This document shows positions 19,915 to 63,268 of a DNA stretch of 64,000 nucleotides, piece by piece. Origin of the DNA: an uncultured Gammaproteobacteria bacterium. Lineage in GTDB: Bacteria > Patescibacteriota > Microgenomatia > Levybacterales > UBA12049. Made by a program: the position numbers and the translations under genes. The stretch lies in NCBI GenBank assembly GCA_964424775.1, contig CAYRJZ010000002.1, positions 73,736-137,735 of the forward strand, written 5' to 3'. The notes beneath the pieces are model-generated. The model did not search any database. It was not told where the DNA came from and was given only the letters and a program-made list of their open reading frames with translations. Positions within the stretch are counted from its first letter, which is position 1, and every line of letters starts with the position of its first letter.

Positions 19915-21352
19915 AGCTTTATTGTTACTCTTACTTATATTTTTAGGCTCAATTTTTGTTCGATTATATCGTTTTGATAATCCTGTTGCTGATTGGCATT
20001 CATGGAGACAGGCAGATACAGCATCTGTAACACGAAATTTTGTACAAGAAGGGTATACTCCTTTCTTTCCAAAATTTGACGTATTAAATTCCCTCAACGA
20101 GACATTTACTCCTAATCCAAATAGATATTTTTTTGCAGAGTTTCCACTTTATAACTCATTGACGTATTTTGGATTTATCCTTTTTGATTTTTTCACCCTT
20201 GAACAGTGGGGAAGGGTAATTAGTATAGGAGCATCGTCATTAACTGTCATAGTTCTTTACTTTTTAGTAAAGCATTATTCGAATTCAAGAATTGCGATGT
20301 TTGCTTCTTTCCTCTTTGCATTTCTTCCTTTTAATATTTATTGGGGAAGAGTAATTATGCCTGATGCATTGCATATTTTTTTAAGTGTTTTTACATTTTT
20401 TCTTGTTACACGGTGGCTCGATTCCAAAAAAATACTTTATGCACTCCTTGCCAGCATTATCTATGCAGGAGCGTTACTCACCAAACCATATGCACTCGTT
20501 CTCCTATTACCACTTGTATATTTAATACTTCGAACATATAAATTTTCTGTCTGGAAACAGTATGCTGTTTATTTGTTTTTTATCCTTTCACTGGCTCCTT
20601 TATTTCTTTGGAGATGGCATATAAGTCAGTATCCAGAGGGAATGTTTGGGACGACATGGCTTTATAATCAAGGTGGAATAAGATTTACAGGTGCTTTTTT
20701 CCGATGGATTATTTATGATCGGATGAATAGATTGATCTTTGCAACTGGAGGTTTTGTATTATTTTGGCTTGGGGTTATAAGTGGATATAACAAAAAAGAA
20801 GGATGGTTTTATTTGTTATGGCTGGTAAGTATTTTTGTCTTCATTACTGTTATTGCTAGAGGAAATGTAACTCATGATTATTATCAACTTCCACTCGTTC
20901 CAATAGGCTGTATTTTTATGGCAAAAGGAATTGATTTTCTTATTACCTATAAGAATACTTTGTTTCAAAGGGCAATTAATATAGGAATTATTGGAGTATT
21001 ATTAGCACTTCTTTTTGCCTTCGGATGGTATGAAATAAGAGGATACTATTATGTAAATAATCCATCGATAATTAAAGCAGGACAATATGTTGATAAAAAT
21101 CTTCCTCAAGATGCTATTGTCATTGCTCCATACCAGAACGACACAGCTTTTCTCTATCAAACGAATAGACATGGGTATACAGTAGGAGAAGGAAAAATTG
21201 AAGAATACAGAGAAGAAGGCGCAACACATTTGGTTTCCGTCAATTTTGATGATGCAACAAATGAATGGGCTAAAAGATGCACCGTAATTGAAAAAAATAA
21301 GGATTTTATTGTCGTTGACCTCACTGAGTGTGCTGCAGGGGAAGAAAAATGA
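19904..21352 (+). CDS. GT-C glycosyltransferase, ArnT/PMT (GT83/GT39-like) family
   Basis: VRLYRFDNPVADWHSWRQADTASVTRNF is the hallmark first-loop region of ArnT/PMT-type GT-C enzymes. Many TM helices follow, then a C-terminal soluble domain. Confidence 0.65.
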   Translation: MKNKALLLLLLIFLGSIFVRLYRFDNPVADWHSWRQADTASVTRNFVQEGYTPFFPKFDVLNSLNETFTPNPNRYFFAEFPLYNSLTYFGFILFDFFTLEQWGRVISIGASSLTVIVLYFLVKHYSNSRIAMFASFLFAFLPFNIYWGRVIMPDALHIFLSVFTFFLVTRWLDSKKILYALLASIIYAGALLTKPYALVLLLPLVYLILRTYKFSVWKQYAVYLFFILSLAPLFLWRWHISQYPEGMFGTTWLYNQGGIRFTGAFFRWIIYDRMNRLIFATGGFVLFWLGVISGYNKKEGWFYLLWLVSIFVFITVIARGNVTHDYYQLPLVPIGCIFMAKGIDFLITYKNTLFQRAINIGIIGVLLALLFAFGWYEIRGYYYVNNPSIIKAGQYVDKNLPQDAIVIAPYQNDTAFLYQTNRHGYTVGEGKIEEYREEGATHLVSVNFDDATNEWAKRCTVIEKNKDFIVVDLTECAAGEEK

Positions 21353-21353
21353 C

Positions 21354-22553
21354 ATGAAAATTCTTATTGTTGCATCATACCTTCCCTTTCCTCTTCTGAA
21401 TGGAGGGAATATCCGGCTTTTCAATCTTATTAAAGAGTTATCCTCCCGTCATGAAATTACTCTTATATGTGAAAAACGCATACATCAAACACAAAAAGAT
21501 ATAGACGAGGTTAAGAAATACTGTACCAAAGTAGTAACATTTCCTCGTCGAAAACAATGGAGTGTGAAAAATATATTTTTGTCTGGCTTATCGCAAAAAT
21601 CTTTTCTGACAACAGGTCACAGACTGCCTGATATGACTGCAGGAATTGAAAAAGAACTAAAAGAAAGTAAATATGATGTTATTCATGTTGAAACATTTTA
21701 TGTTCAGCAAAATCTTCCTCCCACATCTCTTCCAGTAGTACTCATTGAGCATAATATTGAGTATCTTGTTTATGAACGATACATGAGAAATGCCTTTCCT
21801 CTTTTACAGCCACTCTTATCACTGGACATTAAAAAAATAAAGAGAGAGGAAGAACAATGTTGGAAACAAGCAACAGTTGTCGCGACTGTTTCCGAAGAAG
21901 AGAAAAAGTATATAAAAAAAGATAAGGTTTATGTAGTACCTAACGGTGTAGATATGAAGCAATTCACTCTTAAGAAAGTACCGGATAATTTTGAAAAAAA
22001 AGAAAAAAGAATTTTATATATTGGGGATTATAAATGGATTCAAAATAGCGACGCTGCTTCGTATATCATAAAAGATGTATGGCCAGAAATAAAAAAAAGA
22101 CTCTCAACTTCTCGTTTTGAGTATTACTTGTGGATCGTTGGGAGAAATATGTCTGTAGGACTTAAAAAATTAGGTGTGGATGATTCGTCAATTATTTTTG
22201 ATGACAATAACTCTGACCCAACAAATAAAATATTTACCTATGCAGATGTTCTCTTAGCGCCAAAGAGAGTGGGTGGCGGGACGAGCTATAAAATAATTGA
22301 ATCAATGGCAGTTGGCACACCAGTTGTAACAACTCCATTAGGACTTGAAGGATTAGATATAAAGGCGAGTAGAGATATTCTTGTTGGAGATACTCCAGAT
22401 GAGCTTGCTGAAGCAGTGTGTACCGTTTTAACGAATGAGGAAGAGTATAAGAGAATTTCAGCTAGGTCTCGTCAGGCTGTTGAAGAGAAATATGCGTGGC
22501 CAGCAATTACTTCCCGACTTGAGCAAGCTTATAAAGAAGCTCTACAGAAATAA
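21354..22553 (+). CDS. GT4 glycosyltransferase
   Basis: The start was taken at ATG 21354 (MKILIVASYLPFPLLNGG), two nt after the upstream TGA. The C-domain has GGGTSYKIIESMAVGTPVVTT. Confidence 0.75.
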   Translation: MKILIVASYLPFPLLNGGNIRLFNLIKELSSRHEITLICEKRIHQTQKDIDEVKKYCTKVVTFPRRKQWSVKNIFLSGLSQKSFLTTGHRLPDMTAGIEKELKESKYDVIHVETFYVQQNLPPTSLPVVLIEHNIEYLVYERYMRNAFPLLQPLLSLDIKKIKREEEQCWKQATVVATVSEEEKKYIKKDKVYVVPNGVDMKQFTLKKVPDNFEKKEKRILYIGDYKWIQNSDAASYIIKDVWPEIKKRLSTSRFEYYLWIVGRNMSVGLKKLGVDDSSIIFDDNNSDPTNKIFTYADVLLAPKRVGGGTSYKIIESMAVGTPVVTTPLGLEGLDIKASRDILVGDTPDELAEAVCTVLTNEEEYKRISARSRQAVEEKYAWPAITSRLEQAYKEALQK

Positions 22554-22576
22554 CTGATTTCACGTATAATAGTCAC

Positions 22577-23674
22577 ATGAAAGTTGGTATTGACGCTCGT
22601 TTTTGGAATGAAACAGGGGTTGGACGATACATTCGCAATCTTGTTTTGAATCTTCAAACTATTGATAAAAAAAATGAATATGTTCTTTTTGTTACTCCAA
22701 AGGACAAAGAAGCTGTTGAAAGTGTGCTCACTAACTCACATTTTCAAATAAAAGTTGTCAATATTCCCTGGCATTCATTCTCCGAACAGATACAACTGCC
22801 ACCTGCGATTAGCAAAGAAGACGTAGACCTCATGCATTTCCCTTATTTTGCTGTTCCTCTTTTTTATAAAAACCCATTTGTGGTTACTATTCATGATTTG
22901 ATCCTTCATCATTTTCCAACTGGTGAGGCATCAACCCTTCCAACAATTATGTACAGAGCAAAATTATTAGCATACAAATTTATCATTAAAAATGCTGCAA
23001 AACAGGCAGAGAGAGTAATTGTTGTTTCAGAAGCAACAAAAGATGAAGTCATTGACCACTTGAAGATACAGAAAGATAAAATTGATGTCATTTATGAAGG
23101 CTATGAACTTCCTAAAAAAACTTCCCTTTCTTTCGTTCTTAAAAAACCCTATTTTTTACATATTGGTAATGTCTATCCGCACAAAAACTCAAAAGTTCTT
23201 GTAGATGCTTTTGAAAGATTTTCGAAAGATACATATTTATACTTTGTCGGAAGGAGCGACTTTTTTACTGATAAATTGAAAAAGTATATAGATAAAAAGC
23301 AGATTCAAAATATTTCCTTTCTTCACAGGGTCAATGATAAGGAATTAAGCACAATGTATGCAGAAGCAAGTGCTGTTGTCATTCCCTCATTTATGGAGGG
23401 TTTTGGACTTCCTGCAATTGAATCTATGTCTCATCAAACTCCCGTTATAGCATCAGATATTCCATCTCTTCGAGAAATTACTGGTGGAAATGCTCTGTTT
23501 TTCAATCCTAACTCTCAACAGGAGTTAGAACAGAAAATGCAGCTTGTGTTGAAGTCAAAAAATGAATTAAAAGATATAACAACAAGCGCTCAAAAATATA
23601 TCGAGAAATATGATTGGAAAAAAATGGCTGAGCAAACACTTAAAATTTATGAAAGTAGCACTCGTATACGATAG
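22577..23674 (+). CDS. GT4 glycosyltransferase
   Basis: MKVGIDARFWNETGVGRY, FLHIGNVYPHKN, FMEGFGLPAIESMSHQTPVIAS. Confidence 0.8.
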   Translation: MKVGIDARFWNETGVGRYIRNLVLNLQTIDKKNEYVLFVTPKDKEAVESVLTNSHFQIKVVNIPWHSFSEQIQLPPAISKEDVDLMHFPYFAVPLFYKNPFVVTIHDLILHHFPTGEASTLPTIMYRAKLLAYKFIIKNAAKQAERVIVVSEATKDEVIDHLKIQKDKIDVIYEGYELPKKTSLSFVLKKPYFLHIGNVYPHKNSKVLVDAFERFSKDTYLYFVGRSDFFTDKLKKYIDKKQIQNISFLHRVNDKELSTMYAEASAVVIPSFMEGFGLPAIESMSHQTPVIASDIPSLREITGGNALFFNPNSQQELEQKMQLVLKSKNELKDITTSAQKYIEKYDWKKMAEQTLKIYESSTRIR

Positions 23675-47989: not shown

Positions 47990-49102
47990 ATGAAAATTGC
48001 ACTTATTGGAGGCCACCTTTCTCCATCCCTTGCAGTTATAGATAAAATTTCCTCAGATCATACACTCATTTTTTATGGAAGAAAGCATACTTTTGAAGGA
48101 GATACTGCTGTTAGTCTTGAATATAAAGTCATTACTGAAAAAAATATTCCTTTTATATCTTTGAGGACAGGTAGACTGCAACGCTCCTTAACTCGTCACA
48201 CACTTCCATCCCTTGGGAAATTACCTTTAGGATATTTTCAGTCACTTAAATCTCTAAAGAATGAGGGAGTTGATTGTGTTGTGTCATTCGGAGGCTATCT
48301 TTCCATTCCTGTTTGTACTGCAGCGCGGACACTACATATTCCTATTGTTATTCATGAACAAACGACAGAGGCGGGCTTTGCAAATAAAATGGTTGGGAAA
48401 TTTGCGAGTAAGGTCTGTATCTCATGGGAGTCATCAAGAGCTTTTTTCCCTAAAGAAAAGATCGTGTTAACTGGCAATCCACTACGTGTCTACAAAGATG
48501 AGAAAGCTTATAGAATTTTACAGACTGAAAAAGAAACTCCCTTACTCTATATTACAGGTGGAAGCTCGGGATCACACGTTCTGAATACACTTATTGAACA
48601 ATCCTTGCCTGAATTACTCAAAAAATACAGGGTTCTCCATCAGACGGGGGATGCACAAGAATTTAAAGACTATGATCGACTTGTAAGGCTCCGAGATACA
48701 CTTCCAACAGATCTCCAAAAGAGATATGAGCTCCATAAATTCATCACACCGGAAAGTGTCAAGTCCGTACTTACATCAAGTTCCTTAGTTATTAGCCGGT
48801 CGGGGATAAATACGGTCACCGAACTGTTGTTTTTTGGAGTACCGTCACTTTTGATCCCGCTTCCGACAGGCCAGAAAAATGAACAGTATACCAATGCACA
48901 GTTTTTGAAGAAAGTTGGGAGTGCTGAGGTCCTTGAGCAGAAAGACGCTACTGCTGAGGCACTACTAGACCATGTTGAGAGAATAGTACATAATAGATCA
49001 TACATGGAGAATGCTGTGAAGGGTCGATCTCTTGTTCGTCCTGACGCGGCAGAAAAAATTGTCCAGGTAATTATCGATGCTGCCCAGAAAAAGACTACTT
49101 AA
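47990..49102 (+). CDS. murG: Undecaprenyldiphospho-muramoylpentapeptide beta-N-acetylglucosaminyltransferase MurG
   Basis: MKIALIGGHLSP, ITGGSSGSH, SRSGINTVTELLFFGVPSLLIP. Confidence 0.85.
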   Translation: MKIALIGGHLSPSLAVIDKISSDHTLIFYGRKHTFEGDTAVSLEYKVITEKNIPFISLRTGRLQRSLTRHTLPSLGKLPLGYFQSLKSLKNEGVDCVVSFGGYLSIPVCTAARTLHIPIVIHEQTTEAGFANKMVGKFASKVCISWESSRAFFPKEKIVLTGNPLRVYKDEKAYRILQTEKETPLLYITGGSSGSHVLNTLIEQSLPELLKKYRVLHQTGDAQEFKDYDRLVRLRDTLPTDLQKRYELHKFITPESVKSVLTSSSLVISRSGINTVTELLFFGVPSLLIPLPTGQKNEQYTNAQFLKKVGSAEVLEQKDATAEALLDHVERIVHNRSYMENAVKGRSLVRPDAAEKIVQVIIDAAQKKTT

Positions 49103-49520
49103 AAAAGAAAAACATGTTCAAGCAAAAAAGAGAATGCTTTTTATCTCTTTTATAACCGGACTGCTTGGATTCTCTCTCATAGGAGTCGGGATCCTTGTTC
49201 TTCTCAAGGAGCCTCCATTTATCAGCCCGCTTCCTATTTTTCGACCTCTTCAGGCAGATGCAGAGAGTAAGGCAAAGAAGAAGGATATTGAACGTCTGTT
49301 AAAAGAAAAGAATATTGAGTATGAGAATATCCAGCAGGTTAAAAGTGGTATTTATACATTTGATGTTTCCGGACACGGTGAAGTGACAATTAGCACGAAA
49401 AAAGAGCTAAATCCGCAACTGTCCTCTTTACAAGTCATCCTTGTTCGACTTACAATGGAAGGTAAGAAATTTAAGAGGCTTGACGTGCGCTTCGACAGGC
49501 CGATTATTGTGTTGCAATGA
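49077..49520 (+). CDS. Small bitopic protein in the ftsQ/divIB slot (FtsQ-like, no POTRA domain)
   Basis: Basic N-terminus, one TM, and a roughly 100 aa beta-rich ectodomain between murG and ftsA. The assignment is positional. Confidence 0.35.
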   Translation: MLPRKRLLKKEKHVQAKKRMLFISFITGLLGFSLIGVGILVLLKEPPFISPLPIFRPLQADAESKAKKKDIERLLKEKNIEYENIQQVKSGIYTFDVSGHGEVTISTKKELNPQLSSLQVILVRLTMEGKKFKRLDVRFDRPIIVLQ

Positions 49521-50818
49521 AACAAAATGCAGTTGACGGAAAAATTGTAGTAGGAATTGATGTAGGTACGTATAAGATTGTGACTGTCATCGCGAAAGTT
49601 GATGAACAAGTTCACATCCTCGGGGTCTCTGAAGTAAAATCTGCAGGAATTAGAAAAGGTCAAATTGTAGATATAGAAGAGGCCGTTAACACCATTAATT
49701 CATCTATTGAAGCAGCAGAGAGAATGGCTGGATACTCAGTGTCCCATGTCTTTATCTCAATTGGCGGAAGTCAAATTGAGAGTCAGAACTCTCGTGGTGT
49801 TGTCGCAGTCTCAACTCCGCAAGGGGAAATTACTCCAACTGATCTCTTCCGTGTTATCGATGCTGCAAAAGCCATATCTCTCCCATCCACTCGTGAAATA
49901 ATTCATGTCCTTCCACGAAATTATATCGTTGATGGACAGGAAGGCATTAAAGATCCAGTTGGTATGTCTGGAGTAAGACTTGAAGTAGACACACATATTA
50001 TTACTGCAAATAGCATTGCTGTTCGAAATTTGGAAAAAGCTTTTTCAGAAGTTGGCGTTGATGTCAGTGGATTTGTCTTTAACGGGTATGCGAGTTCGCT
50101 CTCTGTTCTTTCTGAGACAGAACGTGAGTTAGGCGTTGTTCTCATCGATATAGGAGCTGGAACAACTGATATTTCAATTTATACAGAAGGTTCTGTTGCT
50201 TATTCATCAGTGTTAGCAATTGGTGCACGACACATTACGAACGACTTAGCGATCGGACTTCGTATCTCTTTGGAAAGTGCTGAGAAGATCAAGTTATTCC
50301 TTTCACAAAATCAGTCTCGTCGAATTCTCAGACCAGAGGATGATGATGACAAGCCAAAGGAGAAGGCAAGTGATGAGATAGATTTATCCTCTCTCAATTT
50401 ACCTGAGGAAGTACGTAAAGTCTCACAAAAGACTCTTGTTGAAGGAATTATTAGACCTCGACTCAATGAGATCTTTACCATGGTCGGAATTGAGCTCAAA
50501 AAGAGTGGCTATGGCGGACAGACTCCAGCAGGTATTGTCATTACAGGTGGAGGAGCTCTCACCGTTGGAATTAAAGATTCTGCAAAGAGAATGCTCGCAA
50601 TGCCTGTTCGAGTAGGAGAGCCTACAGATCTCAAAGGAATTATAGATGAAGTTCAGAGTCCAGCATACTCAACTGCTGTTGGACTTATTATGTATGGAGC
50701 GAAAAATGACACTGGAAGAGCAGCATCATTTGGAGGATTTTCTATGCCAAAAGTTCCCGGTGCATCCGGCAAATCAATAAAGAAGATAATCGATATCATC
50801 AAATCGTTTATTCCGTAA
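49517..50818 (+). CDS. ftsA: Cell division protein FtsA
   Basis: VVGIDVGTYKIV (actin-fold phosphate 1), DIGAGTTDIS, and a C-terminal amphipathic tail. Confidence 0.85.
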   Translation: MKQNAVDGKIVVGIDVGTYKIVTVIAKVDEQVHILGVSEVKSAGIRKGQIVDIEEAVNTINSSIEAAERMAGYSVSHVFISIGGSQIESQNSRGVVAVSTPQGEITPTDLFRVIDAAKAISLPSTREIIHVLPRNYIVDGQEGIKDPVGMSGVRLEVDTHIITANSIAVRNLEKAFSEVGVDVSGFVFNGYASSLSVLSETERELGVVLIDIGAGTTDISIYTEGSVAYSSVLAIGARHITNDLAIGLRISLESAEKIKLFLSQNQSRRILRPEDDDDKPKEKASDEIDLSSLNLPEEVRKVSQKTLVEGIIRPRLNEIFTMVGIELKKSGYGGQTPAGIVITGGGALTVGIKDSAKRMLAMPVRVGEPTDLKGIIDEVQSPAYSTAVGLIMYGAKNDTGRAASFGGFSMPKVPGASGKSIKKIIDIIKSFIP

Positions 50819-50889: not shown

Positions 50890-52101
50890 ATGCTCATTAG
50901 ACCACAAACCACCAACTTCGCTAAGATCAGAGTTATAGGTATCGGTGGTGGAGGCGGAAATGCTATCGCCTCAATGATCAATCACTCCAACATTCAGGGT
51001 GTCGACTTCGTCGCTATCAACACAGACGCTCAGGCACTCCTTCTCAATCCCGCAACAACGAAATTACAAATAGGTGAAAATCTCACCAAAGGACTTGGCT
51101 CTGGTGGAGATCCGGAAATAGGTCGACAGGCAGCTGAGGAATCAGCAGAAAAAATTAAAGATATGCTTGAGGGATCTGACATGGTCTTTTTGACAGCTGG
51201 AATGGGTGGAGGATCAGGAACGGGAGCAACACCTGTTGTTGCGAAAATTGCTAAAGAAGTAGGAGCGCTCACCGTTGCTGTTGTGACCAAGCCATTTACT
51301 TTTGAAGGAACACGCCGAGCTGTCTCAGCTGATGAAGGTATTGAAGGACTTAAAGACAAAGTTGACACTCTTATCGTTATCCCAAATCAGCGAATTATGG
51401 ATGTTGTTGACCGCAAGTTATCTCTTCTTGAAGCGTTCAAAGTTGCTGACTCAGTGCTCAGTCAGGGTGTACAGGGAATTTCAGAGATTATCACGCTTCC
51501 AGGACTTATCAACGTTGACTTTGCCGATGTTCGAACGATCATGTCAAATGCGGGTAGTGCTCTTATGGGTATCGGAACAGGCATTGGTGAGAATAGAGCA
51601 CAAGCAGCAGCACGGGCAGCTATCGCATCACCTCTTCTTGAAGTAACGATGGAAGGAGCACGTGGAGTTCTCTTTAATATTGTTGGAGGAAATGATCTGA
51701 CGATGACTGAAGTAGATGAAGCAGCAAAGATCATCTCAAGTGCAGCTGATTCAGATGCAAATATCATTTTCGGAGCAACTATAGATGAGTCAATGCATGA
51801 TCAGATCAGAATTACTGTTGTCGCAACAGGCTTTGATCAGACCAAACAGCGTCTTCAGCAATTTGTCGCACCACACCTTCGCATGCCATCCCAGGCACAG
51901 GAAGAAGTCAAACAGTACATCAACACTGTTACAGGTCGGCCAGTTGAGCCACACGAGACACCACAGCACAATACGATTCAGCCTATGCCACAACAGCAAC
52001 AACAGCAGCCACAACAAAATTCAGCTCCTCAACAGCAGGAGCAGCGCCCATCAGAAGAAGATGAATGGGATATCCCCGCATTCCTAAGACAGAGAAATTA
52101 G
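50890..52101 (+). CDS. ftsZ: Cell division GTPase FtsZ with a Gln/Pro-rich linker and a conserved C-terminal peptide
   Basis: [11 protein letters not shown], the tubulin signature [13 protein letters not shown], and a C-terminal [10 protein letters not shown]. Confidence 0.9.
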
Positions 52102-52105
52102 AGTT

Positions 52106-52714
52106 ATGGTAATGCTTGAAAATCATCTAGAACTTCAAAGGTGTCCTCATTGTAACGTAGATTCACCCAGCCTTGTTCTTCAATCTACGCATAATACTAC
52201 TGATCATTCTGGTAACTTTAGTAGACTTTGGAATGTATATGTATGTAAGAGATGTGGTGGGGTAGTTATTGCTTGGGCTTATCATAAGGGAGGAGATGTT
52301 CAAGAGATATTTCCTTCTGATAAATCTGTTTCCGATTCAATTCCAGATAAGGCACGAGCTTATCTTAATCAAGCTATGGATAGTATTCATGCTCCAGCTG
52401 GTTCAATTATGTTGTCAGCGAGTGCTGTAGATGCGATGTTGAAAAATAAAGGTTATAAAGAAGGAAGTCTATATACAAGAATTAATCAAGCTGTTAATAA
52501 TCATCTAATAACAAAAGGAATGGCAGATTGGGCACATGAAGTCAGATTAGATGCCAATGATGAAAGACATGCAGATGAGGATAATTTGTTACCTACGGAA
52601 TCTGATGCAAAAAAATGTTTAGAGTTTGCTTTTGCGTTTGGTGATTTCCTTTTTGTTTTACCAGAGAGAGTAACGAGAGGAATTCAATCTGCTAAAAGTG
52701 ATATTGACTCATAA
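52106..52714 (+). CDS. Zinc-ribbon plus DUF4145-like (HEPN-related) domain protein
   Basis: C4 ribbon CPHC...CKRCGG. The C-terminal alpha domain has SAVDAMLKNKG...LYTRINQAV...WAHEVRLDANDERHAD...AKKCLEFAFAFGDFLF, which matches the DUF4145 R-x3-N-x3-H core. Confidence 0.45.
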   Translation: MVMLENHLELQRCPHCNVDSPSLVLQSTHNTTDHSGNFSRLWNVYVCKRCGGVVIAWAYHKGGDVQEIFPSDKSVSDSIPDKARAYLNQAMDSIHAPAGSIMLSASAVDAMLKNKGYKEGSLYTRINQAVNNHLITKGMADWAHEVRLDANDERHADEDNLLPTESDAKKCLEFAFAFGDFLFVLPERVTRGIQSAKSDIDS

Positions 52715-52766
52715 ATATTTCCCCAATATTCCTAAAATTGAAATCTTTTAAATAAATTATTTAGAT

Positions 52767-53273
52767 ATGGTTAATAAATTTGGGTATAAATTAAAAATTA
52801 TATATAAAATTGAGAAAGAATTAAAAAATTTAGATTCAGAAGCCCAAGTTGTTTATATTCTAACTCAAATATTTCGTATCATTGAATCGAAAAATCAGGA
52901 AGTTGAGTATCCATGTATAAATTTCTATAGAAATTGGACAGTGCATTCAAAAATTGATAGAAACTTTAAACCTCAAATCAAATTAATTCTATTATATTTC
53001 ATTAAAAATCCAGGAAGTAGAGAGTTTTTTTTATTTCATAATGAACTTATACTTGAGATGTTCAAGTTTTTTAAAGAGCATAGTGTTTCCGAGTTAGATG
53101 TTGAGCAGGTGGAAAAATTTATATTTCTGCTAAGTAAAGTCTTATCTGATACTCCAGTGAAGATCAAAATTGATAATTCTATCTATATAGTTGAATTATC
53201 AGAACCCAAAAATATTGGTAAGACTGGGGTTTACAAGATTGATGTAGAGGTAAATGTACCTTTCTTGAAATAG
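52767..53273 (+). CDS. Hypothetical protein (very AT-rich gene)
   Basis: ORF only. A 60-nt line inside it counts about 22% GC. Confidence 0.3.
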   Translation: MVNKFGYKLKIIYKIEKELKNLDSEAQVVYILTQIFRIIESKNQEVEYPCINFYRNWTVHSKIDRNFKPQIKLILLYFIKNPGSREFFLFHNELILEMFKFFKEHSVSELDVEQVEKFIFLLSKVLSDTPVKIKIDNSIYIVELSEPKNIGKTGVYKIDVEVNVPFLK

Positions 53274-53344
53274 CGTCAATAAATTATTTTTAGTACATGG
53301 ACTAACATGTTTTAATGCTCAGCTTCATTTGATATACTTCATCT

Positions 53345-53812
53345 ATGATTAGTCATGCTCCTGAGAATTACATTTGTCCTTTTTGCGAAATTGCTGAGGG
53401 GAAAGACACGAGTGATGGACAGACGAAAGATGAATTTGTCTTTTACTCAGATGAAAATACGGTCGCATTTATTTCCTCAATGACATGGCCCCACAACGCG
53501 GGAAATGTTTTAATTATTCCCAGACATCACTTTGAAAATATTTATGACATTTCACCAGATGCACTTTCTCAGACATACATCACAGCTAAAAAAGTAGCTA
53601 CTGCGATGAAAGAACTTTATAAATGCGATGCAACTTCCATGAGACAACACAATGAGCCAGATGGCAATCAAAGTGTCTGGCATTTTCATGTCCATGTGCT
53701 GCCCCGATATAAAGATGACAATTTATACCTCAATCATAAAAATAAAAGAATGATGAGTGATGATGAGAGAAAGAAATATGCTGATCTATTAAAAAAGCAT
53801 TTTTCTAAATAA
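53345..53812 (+). CDS. HIT-family nucleotide hydrolase/transferase
   Basis: Zn ribbon CPFC at the N-terminus and the histidine triad VWHFHVHVLPRY. Confidence 0.75.
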   Translation: MISHAPENYICPFCEIAEGKDTSDGQTKDEFVFYSDENTVAFISSMTWPHNAGNVLIIPRHHFENIYDISPDALSQTYITAKKVATAMKELYKCDATSMRQHNEPDGNQSVWHFHVHVLPRYKDDNLYLNHKNKRMMSDDERKKYADLLKKHFSK

Positions 53813-53874
53813 AAGTACAACAAACACTACCGGCATAAGCAAGTGCTCTACTTAATTTTTGATATACTTCACAT

Positions 53875-54423
53875 ATGGAAAATGGTAATCGTGTGATCAT
53901 TAAATCATGGCATGACTTGACTCGAGACGAACTGGACGAGATGAATGAAAGTCATGCACGAGAATGGAATATCTCATCAATGAATCCAGATTATCATGCA
54001 GAAAATATATTTTTTTTATTGAAAGACAGTGAAAAAAATATTCTCGCCCAAGGTCAACTCGTTCCAATTAAAGGTGTCGTTTTTAATGGTGAGACATTTG
54101 ATATTTTTGGAATTGGCGGAATTATTGCCAATAAAAAAGGAGAAGGGTATGGAAGACAAATAATGAATGCGATTAAGGATTATTTAACATCACATAATAC
54201 AACAGGAGTTGGATTTACTGGATTTTCAGGATTTTATGAAAAGTGTGGATTTAATGTCGATCGGGATGCAATAAAGCGTTTTATCTATATGACTGATGGT
54301 AAAGAAGTTGTGAATACAGAGAGTGATAGAGTATGTTTTTTGGATGCTGAGGATAATTTTATGGAGAAGGTAATTCAGAACCAACACGAATTAGTTTATT
54401 TACCACGTACTCCTGACTGGTAA
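53875..54423 (+). CDS. GNAT-family acetyltransferase
   Basis: IANKKGEGYGRQIMNAIKDYL (motif A). Confidence 0.5.
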   Translation: MENGNRVIIKSWHDLTRDELDEMNESHAREWNISSMNPDYHAENIFFLLKDSEKNILAQGQLVPIKGVVFNGETFDIFGIGGIIANKKGEGYGRQIMNAIKDYLTSHNTTGVGFTGFSGFYEKCGFNVDRDAIKRFIYMTDGKEVVNTESDRVCFLDAEDNFMEKVIQNQHELVYLPRTPDW

Positions 54424-54651: not shown

Positions 54652-55179
54652 ATGACTCAAAGGTCGAGTGGTTCGGAAGTGCCACAGGATCCCATCGGAA
54701 TCGACGGAAAGGAAGTACAACTTCCTTCCTCGTCCAATAGGCGATTGGTTCGGCTCGATTATAAGTGCAGCTTCTGCAACAAGCAGCAAGAGGAGGTGAA
54801 GCGCCTCATCGCTGGTCCGAACAAGGTCTACATTTGCGACGAGTGCGTCAGCCTCTGCAACGAGATCATCGGCGATGAATACGACCAGCCAGGCGAAGTT
54901 GTAGAGAAGATCGACAGCATCGCTGATGAACTCAGGGAACGAGGAAAGAGTGATGAAGGTCTAGAGCAGGTACTTGCTGCTCTGAGTGTGATGAGGCAAC
55001 TGGTCTCCTCGCATCAAGCCTTTCTCCCACCAGAATTCCCTGTGTTTCTCGTCAAAGCAGCTACCTTTGCTTCCGACAGGTTCCTCTCCGGAGAACATGT
55101 TGGGTCTTCAACTGATGGTGAAGATCACAAAGCAGAGGATCCAACTGCGAAAGCAGATACCAACGCTAACGACAACTGA
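54652..55179 (+). CDS. Stand-alone ClpX-type C4 zinc-binding domain protein (no AAA+ module) with an acidic C-terminal tail
   Basis: [40 protein letters not shown] is close to the ClpX N-terminal ZBD ([34 protein letters not shown]). AAGGAG sits 7 nt before the ATG. Confidence 0.65.
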
Positions 55180-62473: not shown

Positions 62474-63229
62474 TTATTTGAGTATTTGATGATCTCTCAA
62501 AAGCGTTTCATATGCGCCAATCTTATGTAACTCTCTTTCAACAGTAGTCTTTCCAATTGATGTCCCACTTCGTATCTGTTTGAGGACACCTTCAGTTGCA
62601 GTTTGTGCACCACTGAAGAACGTATACACATCATGTGGAGCAATTCGCGCAATCGCAAGCTCTGTCTGGGTATCACTGGGTAAGTTCCATGCTGTCTCTA
62701 GTGGAGGCTTTGGGGTTTTTGTCTTTTCACGTTTATGACGAGCTATCTCTTCTTGTCTTTTTTCTAATTTTTCCTTTAATGAAATAAAGCATTGCTCACT
62801 TGCATCCCAATCAACTAATTGTTCATAAACTGACTCATCGTTTCTTGGAAATCCATTCATATGAATAAGGGCTTTTTCAAGGGCGAAATCTTCCTCACCT
62901 TTTTCCCACCGTCTATCATGTGGACCATAAATTGAATCATTTACATTTCTGATTCTTTCGAGCTCATCTGGAGGTGGTGTGTTGTACCAATTTATAACAA
63001 GTCCAGTTGGTCGATATATAAAAGCCATTGAAGGATTCCCTTCTCCTTTCCCTTTTTCCCCATAGAGCCAGAGTATATGCCCTCGTCCATGAATATCTTT
63101 TGCTGGATCATAATTGAGAAATTCATCCCTATCAGAATGAGTAAAGACAGGGAAATATCGTTTTACTCTGTTTTCTATTGTGAGTATGAGTGCTTCGTTT
63201 TCCTGAAAACCTGTGGTAGTCTCAGTCAT
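62474..63229 (-). CDS. Hypothetical protein
   Basis: ORF only. It is co-oriented with the beta-CASP RNase gene, 50 nt downstream of it. Confidence 0.3.
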   Translation of the reverse strand: MTETTTGFQENEALILTIENRVKRYFPVFTHSDRDEFLNYDPAKDIHGRGHILWLYGEKGKGEGNPSMAFIYRPTGLVINWYNTPPPDELERIRNVNDSIYGPHDRRWEKGEEDFALEKALIHMNGFPRNDESVYEQLVDWDASEQCFISLKEKLEKRQEEIARHKREKTKTPKPPLETAWNLPSDTQTELAIARIAPHDVYTFFSGAQTATEGVLKQIRSGTSIGKTTVERELHKIGAYETLLRDHQILK

Positions 63230-63268
63230 GGGTGAAGTATATCAAATTAAGAGTGCTATAATAACAGT

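What the first reader, a model, noticed from the sequence alone, without database searches (positions are those of the whole stretch)
52106..53273. AT-rich two-gene insert immediately after ftsZ: zinc-ribbon plus DUF4145-like protein and a small unknown partner, a candidate defence or toxin module
GC drops abruptly at the ftsZ stop. An ftsZ line counts about 55% GC, against 23-35% in 52106..52714 and about 22% in 52767..53273. The first protein combines a C4 zinc ribbon with a helical domain that matches the DUF4145 core (R-x3-N-x3-H in VRLDANDERHAD). DUF4145 is usually seen fused to or beside restriction and abortive-infection components and has been discussed as HEPN-related. The second protein (168 aa) has no recognisable domain. 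A two-gene, compositionally distinct insert between conserved housekeeping genes is the typical signature of a small defence or toxin-antitoxin-like element.
Basis: partly seen in the sequence, partly recalled or inferred. Interest (0 to 1): 0.55.

Follow-up and report, generated by a model that had tools for sequence, protein, structure and literature searches.

The report
RAZR-like zinc-ribbon RNase defence gene
The gene after ftsZ encodes a zinc-ribbon plus HEPN/DUF4145 protein of the same build as the published single-gene anti-phage RNase RAZR (PD-T7-4), and the small gene next to it belongs to a separate uncharacterised family that is not its conserved partner, so this is a new example of a known defence type, not a new two-gene module.

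Summary

ORF1 belongs to a family of more than 1,400 proteins, 55-60% identical across phyla. The family is common on prophages and has no conserved neighbour. The PD-T7-4 profile match is weak (16 bits), so I call it a RAZR-like sister family.

The "AT-rich insert" claim holds only in part. ORF1 sits at the window mean (36.0% against 35.9% GC) with well-adapted codons, and ftsZ is the high outlier. ORF2 (52767-53273, 168 aa) has 26.4% GC, but that comes from its amino-acid make-up.

ORF2 is not an orphan. It has about 270 relatives, no Pfam family and no solved fold match, and it often follows R-M or nuclease genes. The ORF1+ORF2 pairing occurs nowhere else: 0 of 77 other ORF2-family loci and 0 of 137 other ZnR-DUF4145 loci. 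The toxin-antitoxin or two-gene reading is therefore not supported.

Verdict: a new member of a known kind, of modest interest.

The parts
52106..52714 (+). ORF1, 202 aa: a RAZR-like zinc-ribbon plus DUF4145/HEPN protein. It starts 4 nt after the ftsZ stop codon.
   Evidence: ORF. Pfam DUF4145 E 3.6e-9. phrog_1305 E 7e-24 over the full length. PADLOC PD-T7-4 E 1.5e-3, residues 12-157 matched to profile columns 15-156 of 211. 1,473 homologues. AF2 model pLDDT 88. The start at 52106 gives the same Met-to-Cys13 spacing as the homologues.
52106..52285 (+). N-terminal Cys4 zinc-ribbon domain (residues 1-60; C13-P-H-C16 and C47-x-x-C50). This is the presumed sensor domain.
   Evidence: The four Cys are invariant in 26-29 aligned homologues. 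The model has beta-strands at 23-32, 39-47 and 53-58. It is the most variable part of the family: 1.9-2.2 bits entropy against 0.9 for the HEPN core.
52286..52345 (+). Interdomain linker (residues 61-80) with invariant P70 and P80.
   Evidence: Alignments. No regular secondary structure apart from the short strand 67-69.
52346..52711 (+). C-terminal DUF4145 domain with a HEPN fold (residues 81-202). This is the presumed RNase effector.
52544..52570 (+). Catalytic-type motif R147-L-D-A-N151-D-E-R154-H155.
   Evidence: Read directly from the sequence. R147, N151, R154 and H155 are invariant in the alignments. The R-to-H spacing of 8 equals R146/H154 of RAZR, whose alanine mutants lose defence (PMC13017515).
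52767..53273 (+). ORF2, 168 aa: a member of an uncharacterised family of about 160-aa proteins. It neighbours ORF1 but is not a conserved partner.
52738..52762 (+). Left copy of a 25-nt imperfect direct repeat that brackets ORF2 (TTGAAATCTTTTAAATAAATTATTT).
   Evidence: repeat D1, 80% identity. 20 of 25 matches between the two gene borders, P about 0.001 against pairs of AT-rich windows and against shuffles. Not seen in other ORF2-family loci.
53265..53289 (+). Right copy of the repeat (TTGAAATAGCGTCAATAAATTATTT). It overlaps the ORF2 stop codon.

Best explanation
ORF1 is a stand-alone anti-phage immune protein of the RAZR (PD-T7-4) type.

Shown here: it has an N-terminal Cys4 zinc ribbon joined by a linker to a DUF4145 domain. 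That domain adopts the HEPN RNase fold and keeps the R...H catalytic pair.

Inferred by analogy with E. coli RAZR: the protein is made constitutively, here probably co-transcribed with ftsZ, and stays inactive as an oligomer. Its variable zinc-ribbon domain binds a ring-shaped phage protein such as the portal. Assembly on that ring positions paired HEPN domains into active sites. The enzyme then cuts single-stranded RNA (tRNA, rRNA, mRNA), stops translation and aborts the infection.

ORF2 is an independent gene of an uncharacterised family that tends to lie just downstream of restriction-modification and nuclease genes. Together with ORF1 it forms at most a tiny defence islet, not an obligate pair. 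The ORF1 family spreads horizontally, largely on prophages. The copy in this genome is old enough to be fully adapted in composition.
For: Architecture:
- Pfam DUF4145 E 3.6e-9.
- Invariant C13/C16/C47/C50 and R147/N151/R154/H155.

Link to RAZR:
- PD-T7-4 is the only recurrent PADLOC family. The window protein scores E 1.5e-3, with residues 12-157 matched to profile columns 15-156 (146 residues over 142 columns). 7 of 26 family members match, the best at 4.3e-5.
- RAZR is described as a Cys4 zinc-finger domain plus DUF4145/HEPN, with essential R146/H154, the zinc-finger domain as its most variable region, and single-gene abortive infection (PMC13017515; 'Zn finger-HEPN', PMC9519451).
- The ORF1 family shows the same pattern: 8-residue R-to-H spacing at 147/155 (146/154 in several homologues) and a zinc-ribbon domain about twice as variable as the HEPN domain.

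Single-gene, mobile character:
- 1,473 homologues, 55-60% identical, in Chloroflexota, Patescibacteria, Bacteroidota and Paenibacillus.
- 42 loci on viral contigs, many at prophage ends.
- Neighbours include cI-like repressors, terminase, portal, Abi_alpha, a Pycsar TIR effector and AbiEii-like ATPases, with no conserved partner.
- In three small-genome relatives the gene sits at three different housekeeping sites: after ftsZ here, between hsp20 and dnaK in L001, and between murC and murB in L222.

ORF2 independence:
- 0 of 77 other ORF2-family loci hold an ORF1-type gene, and 0 of 137 other loci with ZnR-DUF4145 genes hold an ORF2-type gene.
Against: - The match to the PD-T7-4 profile is weak (16 bits), and most family members do not reach E 0.1. 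I could not obtain the RAZR-Ec sequence (RRL46918.1) or its structure: 9Y9C and 9Y6U were not found in either PDB copy. Homology to RAZR proper therefore rests on architecture, motif and a marginal profile hit.
- Residues reported to mediate RAZR oligomerisation (D179, D180, R184) are G179, D180 and V184 here.
- The RAZR linker is described as mostly conserved, whereas here the linker is variable.
- The loop carrying H155 is modelled at low confidence (pLDDT 54 for residues 151-160).
- This copy has no mobile-element hallmarks and is codon-adapted and tightly coupled to ftsZ. That would also fit a domesticated role.
- No function was tested.
Confidence: 0.7

Rival explanations
1. Two-gene module. 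ORF1 is a HEPN toxin or effector, and ORF2 is its antitoxin, immunity protein or regulator. The two are acquired and work together.
For: - The genes are adjacent and co-directional, 52 nt apart, with no predicted terminator between them.
- ORF2-family genes often sit 2-50 nt downstream of nuclease-type genes: a helicase plus MTase-S R-M pair in three lineages, an HsdR C-terminus, HNH, T5orf172 and SLFN-AlbA_2.
- Two of them follow proteins with HEPN-like motifs: L090 (FRNYIHP, sub-threshold DUF4145 hit at 16.5 bits) and L139 (IRNGAAH). Counting the window, that is 3 of 28 tight upstream genes against 3 of 168 control neighbours.
Against: - The pairing is unique. It occurs in 0 of 77 other ORF2-family loci and 0 of 137 other ZnR-DUF4145 loci.
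- ORF1-family genes have no conserved neighbour.
- RAZR works as a single gene from its native promoter (PMC13017515).
- ORF2 homologues also follow housekeeping genes such as FtsX and a lyase, or stand alone as in WWE3.
- ORF2 is not an MNT-type nucleotidyltransferase: it has no Pfam hit and a helical model.
- The HEPN status of the L090 and L139 proteins is only motif-level.
Confidence: 0.1
2. Domesticated housekeeping factor. ORF1 has been recruited as an RNase or regulator linked to cell division, expressed from the dcw operon together with ftsA and ftsZ.
For: - A 4-nt gap separates it from the ftsZ stop, with no promoter-like site between them.
- GC and codon usage are fully host-like.
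- No integrase, tRNA or other mobile-element marks are present.
Against: - Homologues in other small genomes lie at unrelated sites (hsp20-dnaK, murC-murB), and most are on prophages or next to defence genes.
- 55-60% identity across phyla with patchy occurrence points to horizontal spread, not vertical housekeeping descent.
- The sensor-like zinc ribbon is the fast-evolving part, as expected under an arms race.
Confidence: 0.08
3. Phage-type DNA-binding or regulatory protein, as homologues in Shigella Stx phages and phrog_1305 are labelled.
For: - phrog_1305, labelled 'DNA binding protein', matches at E 7e-24 over the full length.
- RefSeq copies of Shigella phages 75/02 Stx and POCJ13 carry that label.
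- Zinc ribbons can bind nucleic acids.
Against: - The label is an untested annotation.
- The C-terminal domain has the HEPN fold with an invariant catalytic-type R/N/H motif.
- The validated member of this architecture is an RNase whose zinc finger binds phage proteins (PMC13017515).
Confidence: 0.05

Closest known systems
RAZR (ring-activated zinc-finger RNase), formerly PD-T7-4, from E. coli UMB1727 (Vassallo et al. 2022, PMC9519451; Nature 2026, PMC13017515)
   Same: - The same two-domain build in about 200-220 aa: an N-terminal Cys4 zinc ribbon, a linker and a C-terminal DUF4145/HEPN domain.
- Catalytic-type Arg and His 8 residues apart at almost the same positions (146/154 against 147/155).
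- A single gene without a conserved partner.
- The zinc-ribbon domain is the most variable region.
- The family is frequent on prophages and mobile elements and is spread across phyla.
- PD-T7-4 is the only PADLOC model that members hit recurrently.
   Different: - Only a marginal profile match (16 bits here, at best E 4.3e-5 in the family), so this is a sister subfamily, not RAZR proper.
- The linker is variable here.
- The reported oligomerisation residues (D179, D180, R184) are not matched position for position.
- This copy is chromosomal, codon-adapted and fused to the end of the dcw operon in a 36% GC uncultured bacterium.
- No trigger, RNase activity or defence phenotype is known.
phrog_1305 / ZnR-DUF4145 proteins of temperate enterobacterial phages (Escherichia phage PhiR12_3, Shigella phages 75/02 Stx and POCJ13, Klebsiella phage 2b)
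   Same: Clear homologues at 26-28% identity over 88-93% of ORF1. They share CPHC...CxxC and the LIT..MA.WAH.VR...N...H.D signature.
   Different: They carry an insertion of about 25 residues between the zinc ribbon and the HEPN domain, which moves the Arg/His to roughly 170-193. They are labelled 'DNA binding protein' without evidence. They sit inside intact prophages next to lysis, terminase or early genes.
DUF4145 HEPN domains fused to or beside restriction-modification and Abi components (Anantharaman et al. 2013, PMC3710099)
   Same: The same Pfam family and HEPN superfamily. A zinc-ribbon fusion is already listed there among the DUF4145 architectures.
   Different: There is no REase, helicase, AbiJ-NTD or R-M neighbour here. 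ORF1 is a free-standing two-domain protein.
HEPN-MNT type II/VII toxin-antitoxin systems (for example SO_3166/SO_3165, PDB 5yep; HEPN/MNT 7ae2)
   Different: No MNT nucleotidyltransferase partner is present. ORF2 has a different, mostly helical predicted fold and is not a conserved neighbour.

Membership tests
RAZR / PD-T7-4 | N-terminal Cys4 zinc-ribbon (zinc-finger) domain | tested here: met
   C13, C16, C47 and C50 are invariant. The model has beta-strands between and after the Cys pairs. Weak zinc-ribbon Pfam hits.
RAZR / PD-T7-4 | C-terminal DUF4145 domain with a HEPN fold | tested here: met
RAZR / PD-T7-4 | Conserved catalytic Arg and His (R146/H154 in RAZR-Ec), 8 residues apart | tested here: met
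   R147 and H155 are invariant in the aligned homologues and at least 95% conserved among 120 homologues. Several homologues number exactly 146/154. Catalysis itself was not tested.
RAZR / PD-T7-4 | Significant sequence match to the family profile (PADLOC PDLC04109) or to RAZR-Ec itself | tested here: inconclusive
   E 1.5e-3, 16 bits, collinear over 146 residues. 7 of 26 family members match at E <= 0.1, the best at 4.3e-5. The RAZR-Ec sequence and PDB 9Y9C/9Y6U were not retrievable.
RAZR / PD-T7-4 | Acts as a single gene with no obligate partner | tested here: met
   No conserved neighbour among 50 other family loci. This is genomic evidence only.
RAZR / PD-T7-4 | Zinc-finger domain is the most variable region (specificity determinant) | tested here: met
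   Mean column entropy is 1.9-2.2 bits in the zinc-ribbon domain against 0.9 in the HEPN core, over 120 homologues.
RAZR / PD-T7-4 | Carried on prophages or mobile elements | tested here: inconclusive
   Met for the family: 42 viral-contig loci, many at prophage ends. Not met for this copy: no integrase or tRNA, and host-like codon usage.
RAZR / PD-T7-4 | Higher-order oligomer activated by ring-shaped phage proteins; ssRNA cleavage; abortive infection | not testable with these tools
   Needs biochemistry, cryo-EM and phage assays. The oligomerisation residues D179/D180/R184 of RAZR-Ec correspond by number to G179/D180/V184 here, with no alignment to RAZR-Ec available.
Type II toxin-antitoxin or two-gene defence module | The two genes recur together as a conserved adjacent pair | tested here: not met
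   0 of 77 other ORF2-family loci contain an ORF1-type gene. 0 of 50 other ORF1-family loci contain an ORF2-type gene, and 0 of 137 other ZnR-DUF4145 loci do.
HEPN-MNT toxin-antitoxin | Adjacent minimal nucleotidyltransferase (MNT) antitoxin | tested here: not met
   ORF2 has no NTase or other Pfam match. Its model has six helices plus a small sheet. The flanking genes are ftsZ and a HIT hydrolase.
Recently acquired genomic islet | Atypical composition or codon usage relative to the host | tested here: not met
   ORF1: GC z -0.04, codon-fit z +1.5. ORF2: GC z -2.3, but GC3 z -0.5 and codon-fit z -0.2.
Recently acquired genomic islet | Absent from the same site in close relatives | not testable with these tools
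   FtsZ, ORF1, ORF2 and the ClpX-zinc-finger protein are each singletons at 90% identity. Exact-sequence look-ups of ORF1, ORF2 and FtsZ found no other contig.

The most novel reading that the evidence does not exclude
The ORF2 family may be a new, portable accessory protein (an immunity factor, regulator or sensor) that plugs in behind diverse nuclease effectors: HEPN RNases, HNH, GIY-YIG-like proteins, type I/IIG R-M and Schlafen-AlbA. In this probably Patescibacteria-like genome it would modulate a RAZR-like RNase that is transcribed with ftsZ, coupling an abortive-infection switch to the cell-division operon.
Probability: 0.1. Interest if true: 0.6.

Novelty: new member of a known kind. 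Interest (0 to 1): 0.3.

Why it matters
If ORF1 works like RAZR, the ring-sensing zinc-finger RNase class extends well beyond Enterobacteria. The subfamily is large (more than 1,400 clusters) and highly conserved, reaching Chloroflexota, Bacteroidota, Firmicutes and small-genome uncultured bacteria whose phages and immune repertoires are poorly known.

Two smaller points follow. First, a defence gene can sit fully codon-adapted at the end of the dcw operon, so composition-based island calls would miss it, and here the apparent GC drop was misleading. Second, ORF2 defines a family of about 270 proteins with no Pfam entry and a confident model with no match among solved (PDB) structures. The family recurs behind R-M and nuclease genes and is a reasonable candidate for defence-island mining.

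Tried and rejected
1. I first took ORF2 for an orphan, because the word-indexed search returned only itself. The exhaustive phmmer search overturned this.
2. I compared ORF2 with the gene downstream of the ORF1 homologue in L001. They are unrelated.
4. I tried to obtain RAZR-Ec for a direct comparison:
   - PDB sequence searches with the family profile, ORF1 and a closer relative did not find it.
   - No supplement text is held for the paper.
   - Screening all fetched loci for the published residue landmarks found nothing.
   - blastn of two ORF1-family genes against 5,426 E. coli genomes gave no match.
5. I searched for synteny or an empty site in relatives. Exact look-ups of ORF1, ORF2 and FtsZ found no other contig, and the clusters are singletons.
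6. I tested whether the 25-nt direct repeat around ORF2 marks a mobile cassette. It is locally significant (P about 0.001) but absent from the 72 other family loci tested, so it is not a family-level att site.
7. I looked for signs of a mobile element. There are no tRNAs, no Rfam hits and no terminator on the + strand, and promoter-like hits are at chance level.
8. I looked for paralogues of either gene elsewhere in the window. There are none.
Full report
**What is there.** The window holds a dcw-type cluster: murG 47990-49102, a small gene, ftsA 49517-50818 and ftsZ 50890-52101. ORF1 runs 52106-52714 (202 aa) and ORF2 runs 52767-53273 (168 aa). ORF1's ATG lies 4 nt after the ftsZ stop (TAG-AGTT-ATG). 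Starting at 52106 gives the same Met-to-first-Cys spacing as the homologues. No promoter-like or terminator-like site on the + strand separates ftsZ, ORF1 and ORF2, and overall counts are at the shuffle expectation. Co-transcription with ftsZ is therefore plausible but only inferred.

**Composition.**
- The window is 35.9% GC.
- Among 58 ORFs of at least 100 aa, ORF1 is 36.0% GC (z = -0.04). Its synonymous codon usage fits the window's better than average (z = +1.5).
- ftsZ is the outlier at 46.2% (z = +2.4). This produces the apparent drop at its stop codon.
- ORF2 is the lowest at 26.4% (z = -2.3). The deficit is in codon positions 1 and 2 (z = -2.0 and -3.2). GC3 (z = -0.5) and codon fit (z = -0.2) are normal.
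- Neither gene therefore carries a compositional signature of recent acquisition.
- The real outlier nearby is 54652-55179, a protein with only a ClpX-type zinc finger: 51% GC, GC3 z = +5.0, codon fit z = -5.8.

**ORF1: domains and fold.**
- Pfam DUF4145 matches residues 95-174 (E 3.6e-9, above the gathering score). Only weak zinc-ribbon hits cover the N-terminus.
- PHROGs family 1305 matches the full length (E 7e-24).
- PADLOC gives a single hit, PD-T7-4 (E 1.5e-3, 16 bits). Residues 12-157 match profile columns 15-156, which leaves little room for gaps.
- A search of 5.8 billion proteins returned 1,473 homologues. The best 120 are 54-62% identical over the full length. Named sources include Chloroflexota, Patescibacteria, Bacteroidota (Robiginitalea, Psychroserpens, Hyunsoonleella) and Paenibacillus.
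- In alignments, C13, C16, C47, C50, R147, N151, R154, H155 and D157 are invariant.
- An AlphaFold2 model built from 26 sequences has pLDDT 88. It shows beta-strands in residues 23-69 and then six helices. The 151-160 loop that carries H155 is modelled at low confidence (pLDDT 54).

**What is known about this architecture.**
- Anantharaman et al. 2013 placed DUF4145 in the HEPN superfamily. They listed zinc-ribbon fusions among its architectures (PMC3710099).
- Vassallo et al. 2022 recovered PD-T7-4, described as 'Zn finger-HEPN', as a single-gene anti-phage system from E. coli UMB1727 (PMC9519451).
- A 2026 Nature paper renamed it RAZR (PMC13017515). It has a Cys4 zinc-finger domain (ZFD), a linker and a DUF4145/HEPN RNase with essential R146 and H154.
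- RAZR pre-exists as an oligomer. It assembles as a 24-mer around ring-forming phage proteins (SECphi27 Gp77, T7-type portal) through the ZFD.
- It then cleaves single-stranded RNA and blocks translation, acting by abortive infection.

**How well ORF1 fits RAZR.** The fits are:
- the same domain order and size;
- R147 and H155 with the same 8-residue spacing (several homologues number exactly 146/154);
- a zinc-ribbon domain about twice as variable as the HEPN core (1.9-2.2 against 0.9 bits over 120 homologues);
- no conserved neighbour.

The misfits are:
- the PD-T7-4 profile match is marginal: only 7 of 26 family members reach E 0.1, the best at 4.3e-5;
- the linker is variable here;
- the residues reported for RAZR oligomerisation are not matched by number.

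I could not obtain the RAZR-Ec sequence or its structures for a direct comparison. An alignment with enterobacterial prophage relatives (PhiR12_3, Klebsiella phage 2b and others) shows one superfamily. Its members share CPHC...CxxC and LIT..MA.WAH.VR...N...H.D, but they fall into distinct subfamilies. I therefore call ORF1 a RAZR-like sister family, not RAZR proper.

**Genomic behaviour of the ORF1 family.**
- A scan of viral contigs found 42 loci, many with the gene at the very end of the predicted prophage.
- A species-representative genome scan found 9 loci, mostly Hyphomicrobiales.
- Clustering the genes within four positions of the homologue in 50 other family loci found no recurrent partner.
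- Pfam on 114 neighbours gave 66 families. Those matched by the most neighbours were cI-like S24/HTH repressors (three) and terminase (two). Single cases included portal, Prim-Pol, Abi_alpha, a Pycsar TIR effector, RhuM and DUF4238, and two neighbours each matched AbiEii-like AAA_21 and a second DUF4145. A tandem DUF4145-like copy follows the gene in L028, L030 and L032.
- In most high-GC hosts the gene is markedly lower in GC than its surroundings.
- In the two closest small-genome relatives it lies between hsp20 and dnaK (L001, labelled Patescibacteria) and between murC and murB, just after an AAA_16/AAA_22 ATPase (L222). Those are different sites from this window.
- Together this is the pattern of a horizontally moving, stand-alone defence gene.

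**ORF2.**
- The word-indexed search saw only itself. An exhaustive phmmer search over 1.84 billion representatives found 231 relatives (20 below 1e-10, the best 42% identical, 150-180 aa, full length).
- A profile search found 270 proteins. None has a Pfam domain. The few named ones come from Minisyncoccia, WWE3, Moraniibacteriota and Firestonebacteria.
- Conserved positions are E25, F53-Y54-(C/R)55-N56-W57-x-x-H60, F101 and T129-P130.
- I therefore have no supported biochemical function for ORF2.

**Is it a pair?**
- I fetched 80 metagenomic loci and 6 further contigs that encode ORF2-family proteins. An ORF1-family profile found no hit in any of them except the window itself.
- Conversely, the ORF2-family profile found no hit in the other 50 ORF1-family loci. 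It also found none in six-frame translations of 138 loci holding ZnR-DUF4145 genes of any subfamily.
- The pairing is therefore unique to this genome.

**ORF2-family neighbourhoods.** These are very diverse: 149 Pfam families among 146 neighbours. In 28 of 65 loci there is a co-directional gene within 80 nt upstream. Among these are:
- a helicase plus N6-MTase/S R-M pair in three lineages;
- an HsdR C-terminus, HNH, T5orf172 and Schlafen-AlbA_2;
- two proteins with HEPN-like motifs (L090, L139), which are motif-level calls only.

FtsX, a lyase and stand-alone cases also occur. ORF2 is thus best described as a defence-island-associated gene of unknown function that here happens to follow a RAZR-like gene. 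A looser functional link to nucleases in general is possible but unproven.

**Local features.**
- A 25-nt imperfect direct repeat brackets ORF2 (52738-52762 and 53265-53289, 20 of 25 matches). Between the two gene borders this is unusual (P about 0.001). It is not a property of the family, since among 73 loci tested only the window reached P <= 0.01. It could be a duplicated promoter segment or a relic of insertion, and I leave it unexplained.
- The next two genes (HIT 53345-53812 and GNAT 53875-54423) each have the exact 14-mer TTTGATATACTTCA ending 3 nt before their ATG. So does a third gene on the minus strand at 63229. These genes therefore look like separate native transcription units.

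**Verdict.**
- The sequence-level observation is right about the proteins and wrong about the composition of ORF1.
- The two-gene or toxin-antitoxin interpretation is not supported.
- Novelty: a new member (sister subfamily) of a known kind, plus an uncharacterised neighbour family.
- Interest is modest at 0.3.

Noticed in passing
window 54652-55179 (+): A 175-aa protein whose only domain is a ClpX-type C4 zinc finger (Pfam zf-C4_ClpX, E 2.5e-19), with no AAA+ module. It is the strongest compositional outlier in the window: 51.3% GC, GC3 z = +5.0, codon-usage fit z = -5.8. It looks recently acquired.
   Followed up: partly
window 53328-53341 (+), 53858-53871 (+), 63233-63246 (-): The exact 14-mer TTTGATATACTTCA occurs three times. 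The two plus-strand copies end 3 nt before the start codons of the HIT and GNAT genes, and the minus-strand copy ends 3 nt before that of gene 62474-63229. It is probably a -10-type promoter element for near-leaderless transcripts.
   Followed up: partly
window 52738-52762 and 53265-53289: A 25-nt imperfect direct repeat (20 of 25 matches) sits exactly at the two borders of ORF2. P is about 0.001 for those two windows, and it is absent from the other 72 ORF2-family loci tested. Its origin is unexplained: a duplicated promoter or an insertion relic.
   Followed up: yes
L090 270-1112 and 1116-1610; L139 2389-3000 and 3017 onwards: In two metagenomic contigs an ORF2-family gene starts 3-16 nt after a protein with a HEPN-like motif: FRNYIHP in L090 (sub-threshold DUF4145 hit) and IRNGAAH in L139. 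Counting the window, that is 3 of 28 tight upstream genes against 3 of 168 control neighbours.
   Followed up: partly
L060/L061/L074, L088/L093, L110/L111: In three lineages ORF2-family genes follow a helicase (HSDR_N_2/ResIII) plus N6_Mtase-Methylase_S gene pair. In two of them the gene starts 2-3 nt after the methylase gene. In the third (L110/L111) another gene lies in between. In L075 an ORF2-family gene follows an HsdR C-terminal domain.
   Followed up: partly
L028 649-1257, L030 643-1188, L032 650-1258: Three prophage-end loci carry a second, diverged DUF4145-type gene immediately downstream of the ORF1-family gene, as a tandem pair of paralogues. Pfam was run on the L028 copy only; the other two are linked to it by BLASTP clustering.
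   Followed up: no
L222 4717-5988 and 6001-6612: The closest homologue of ORF1 (61% identity) starts 13 nt after a 423-aa AAA_16/AAA_22 ATPase. It lies in an islet between murC and murB that also holds a PDDEXK_3 protein. This could be a two-gene variant in that lineage.
   Followed up: no
L001-L053 (ORF1-family loci): In most high-GC hosts the ORF1-family gene is 5-16 GC points below its locus (for example L002 39% against 53%, L043 50% against 66%). That fits horizontal spread from lower-GC donors or selection on its composition.
   Followed up: no
window 21352-23610: About 2.2 kb with no ORF of 100 aa or more in my non-overlapping gene call, and no tRNA or Rfam match.
   Followed up: no
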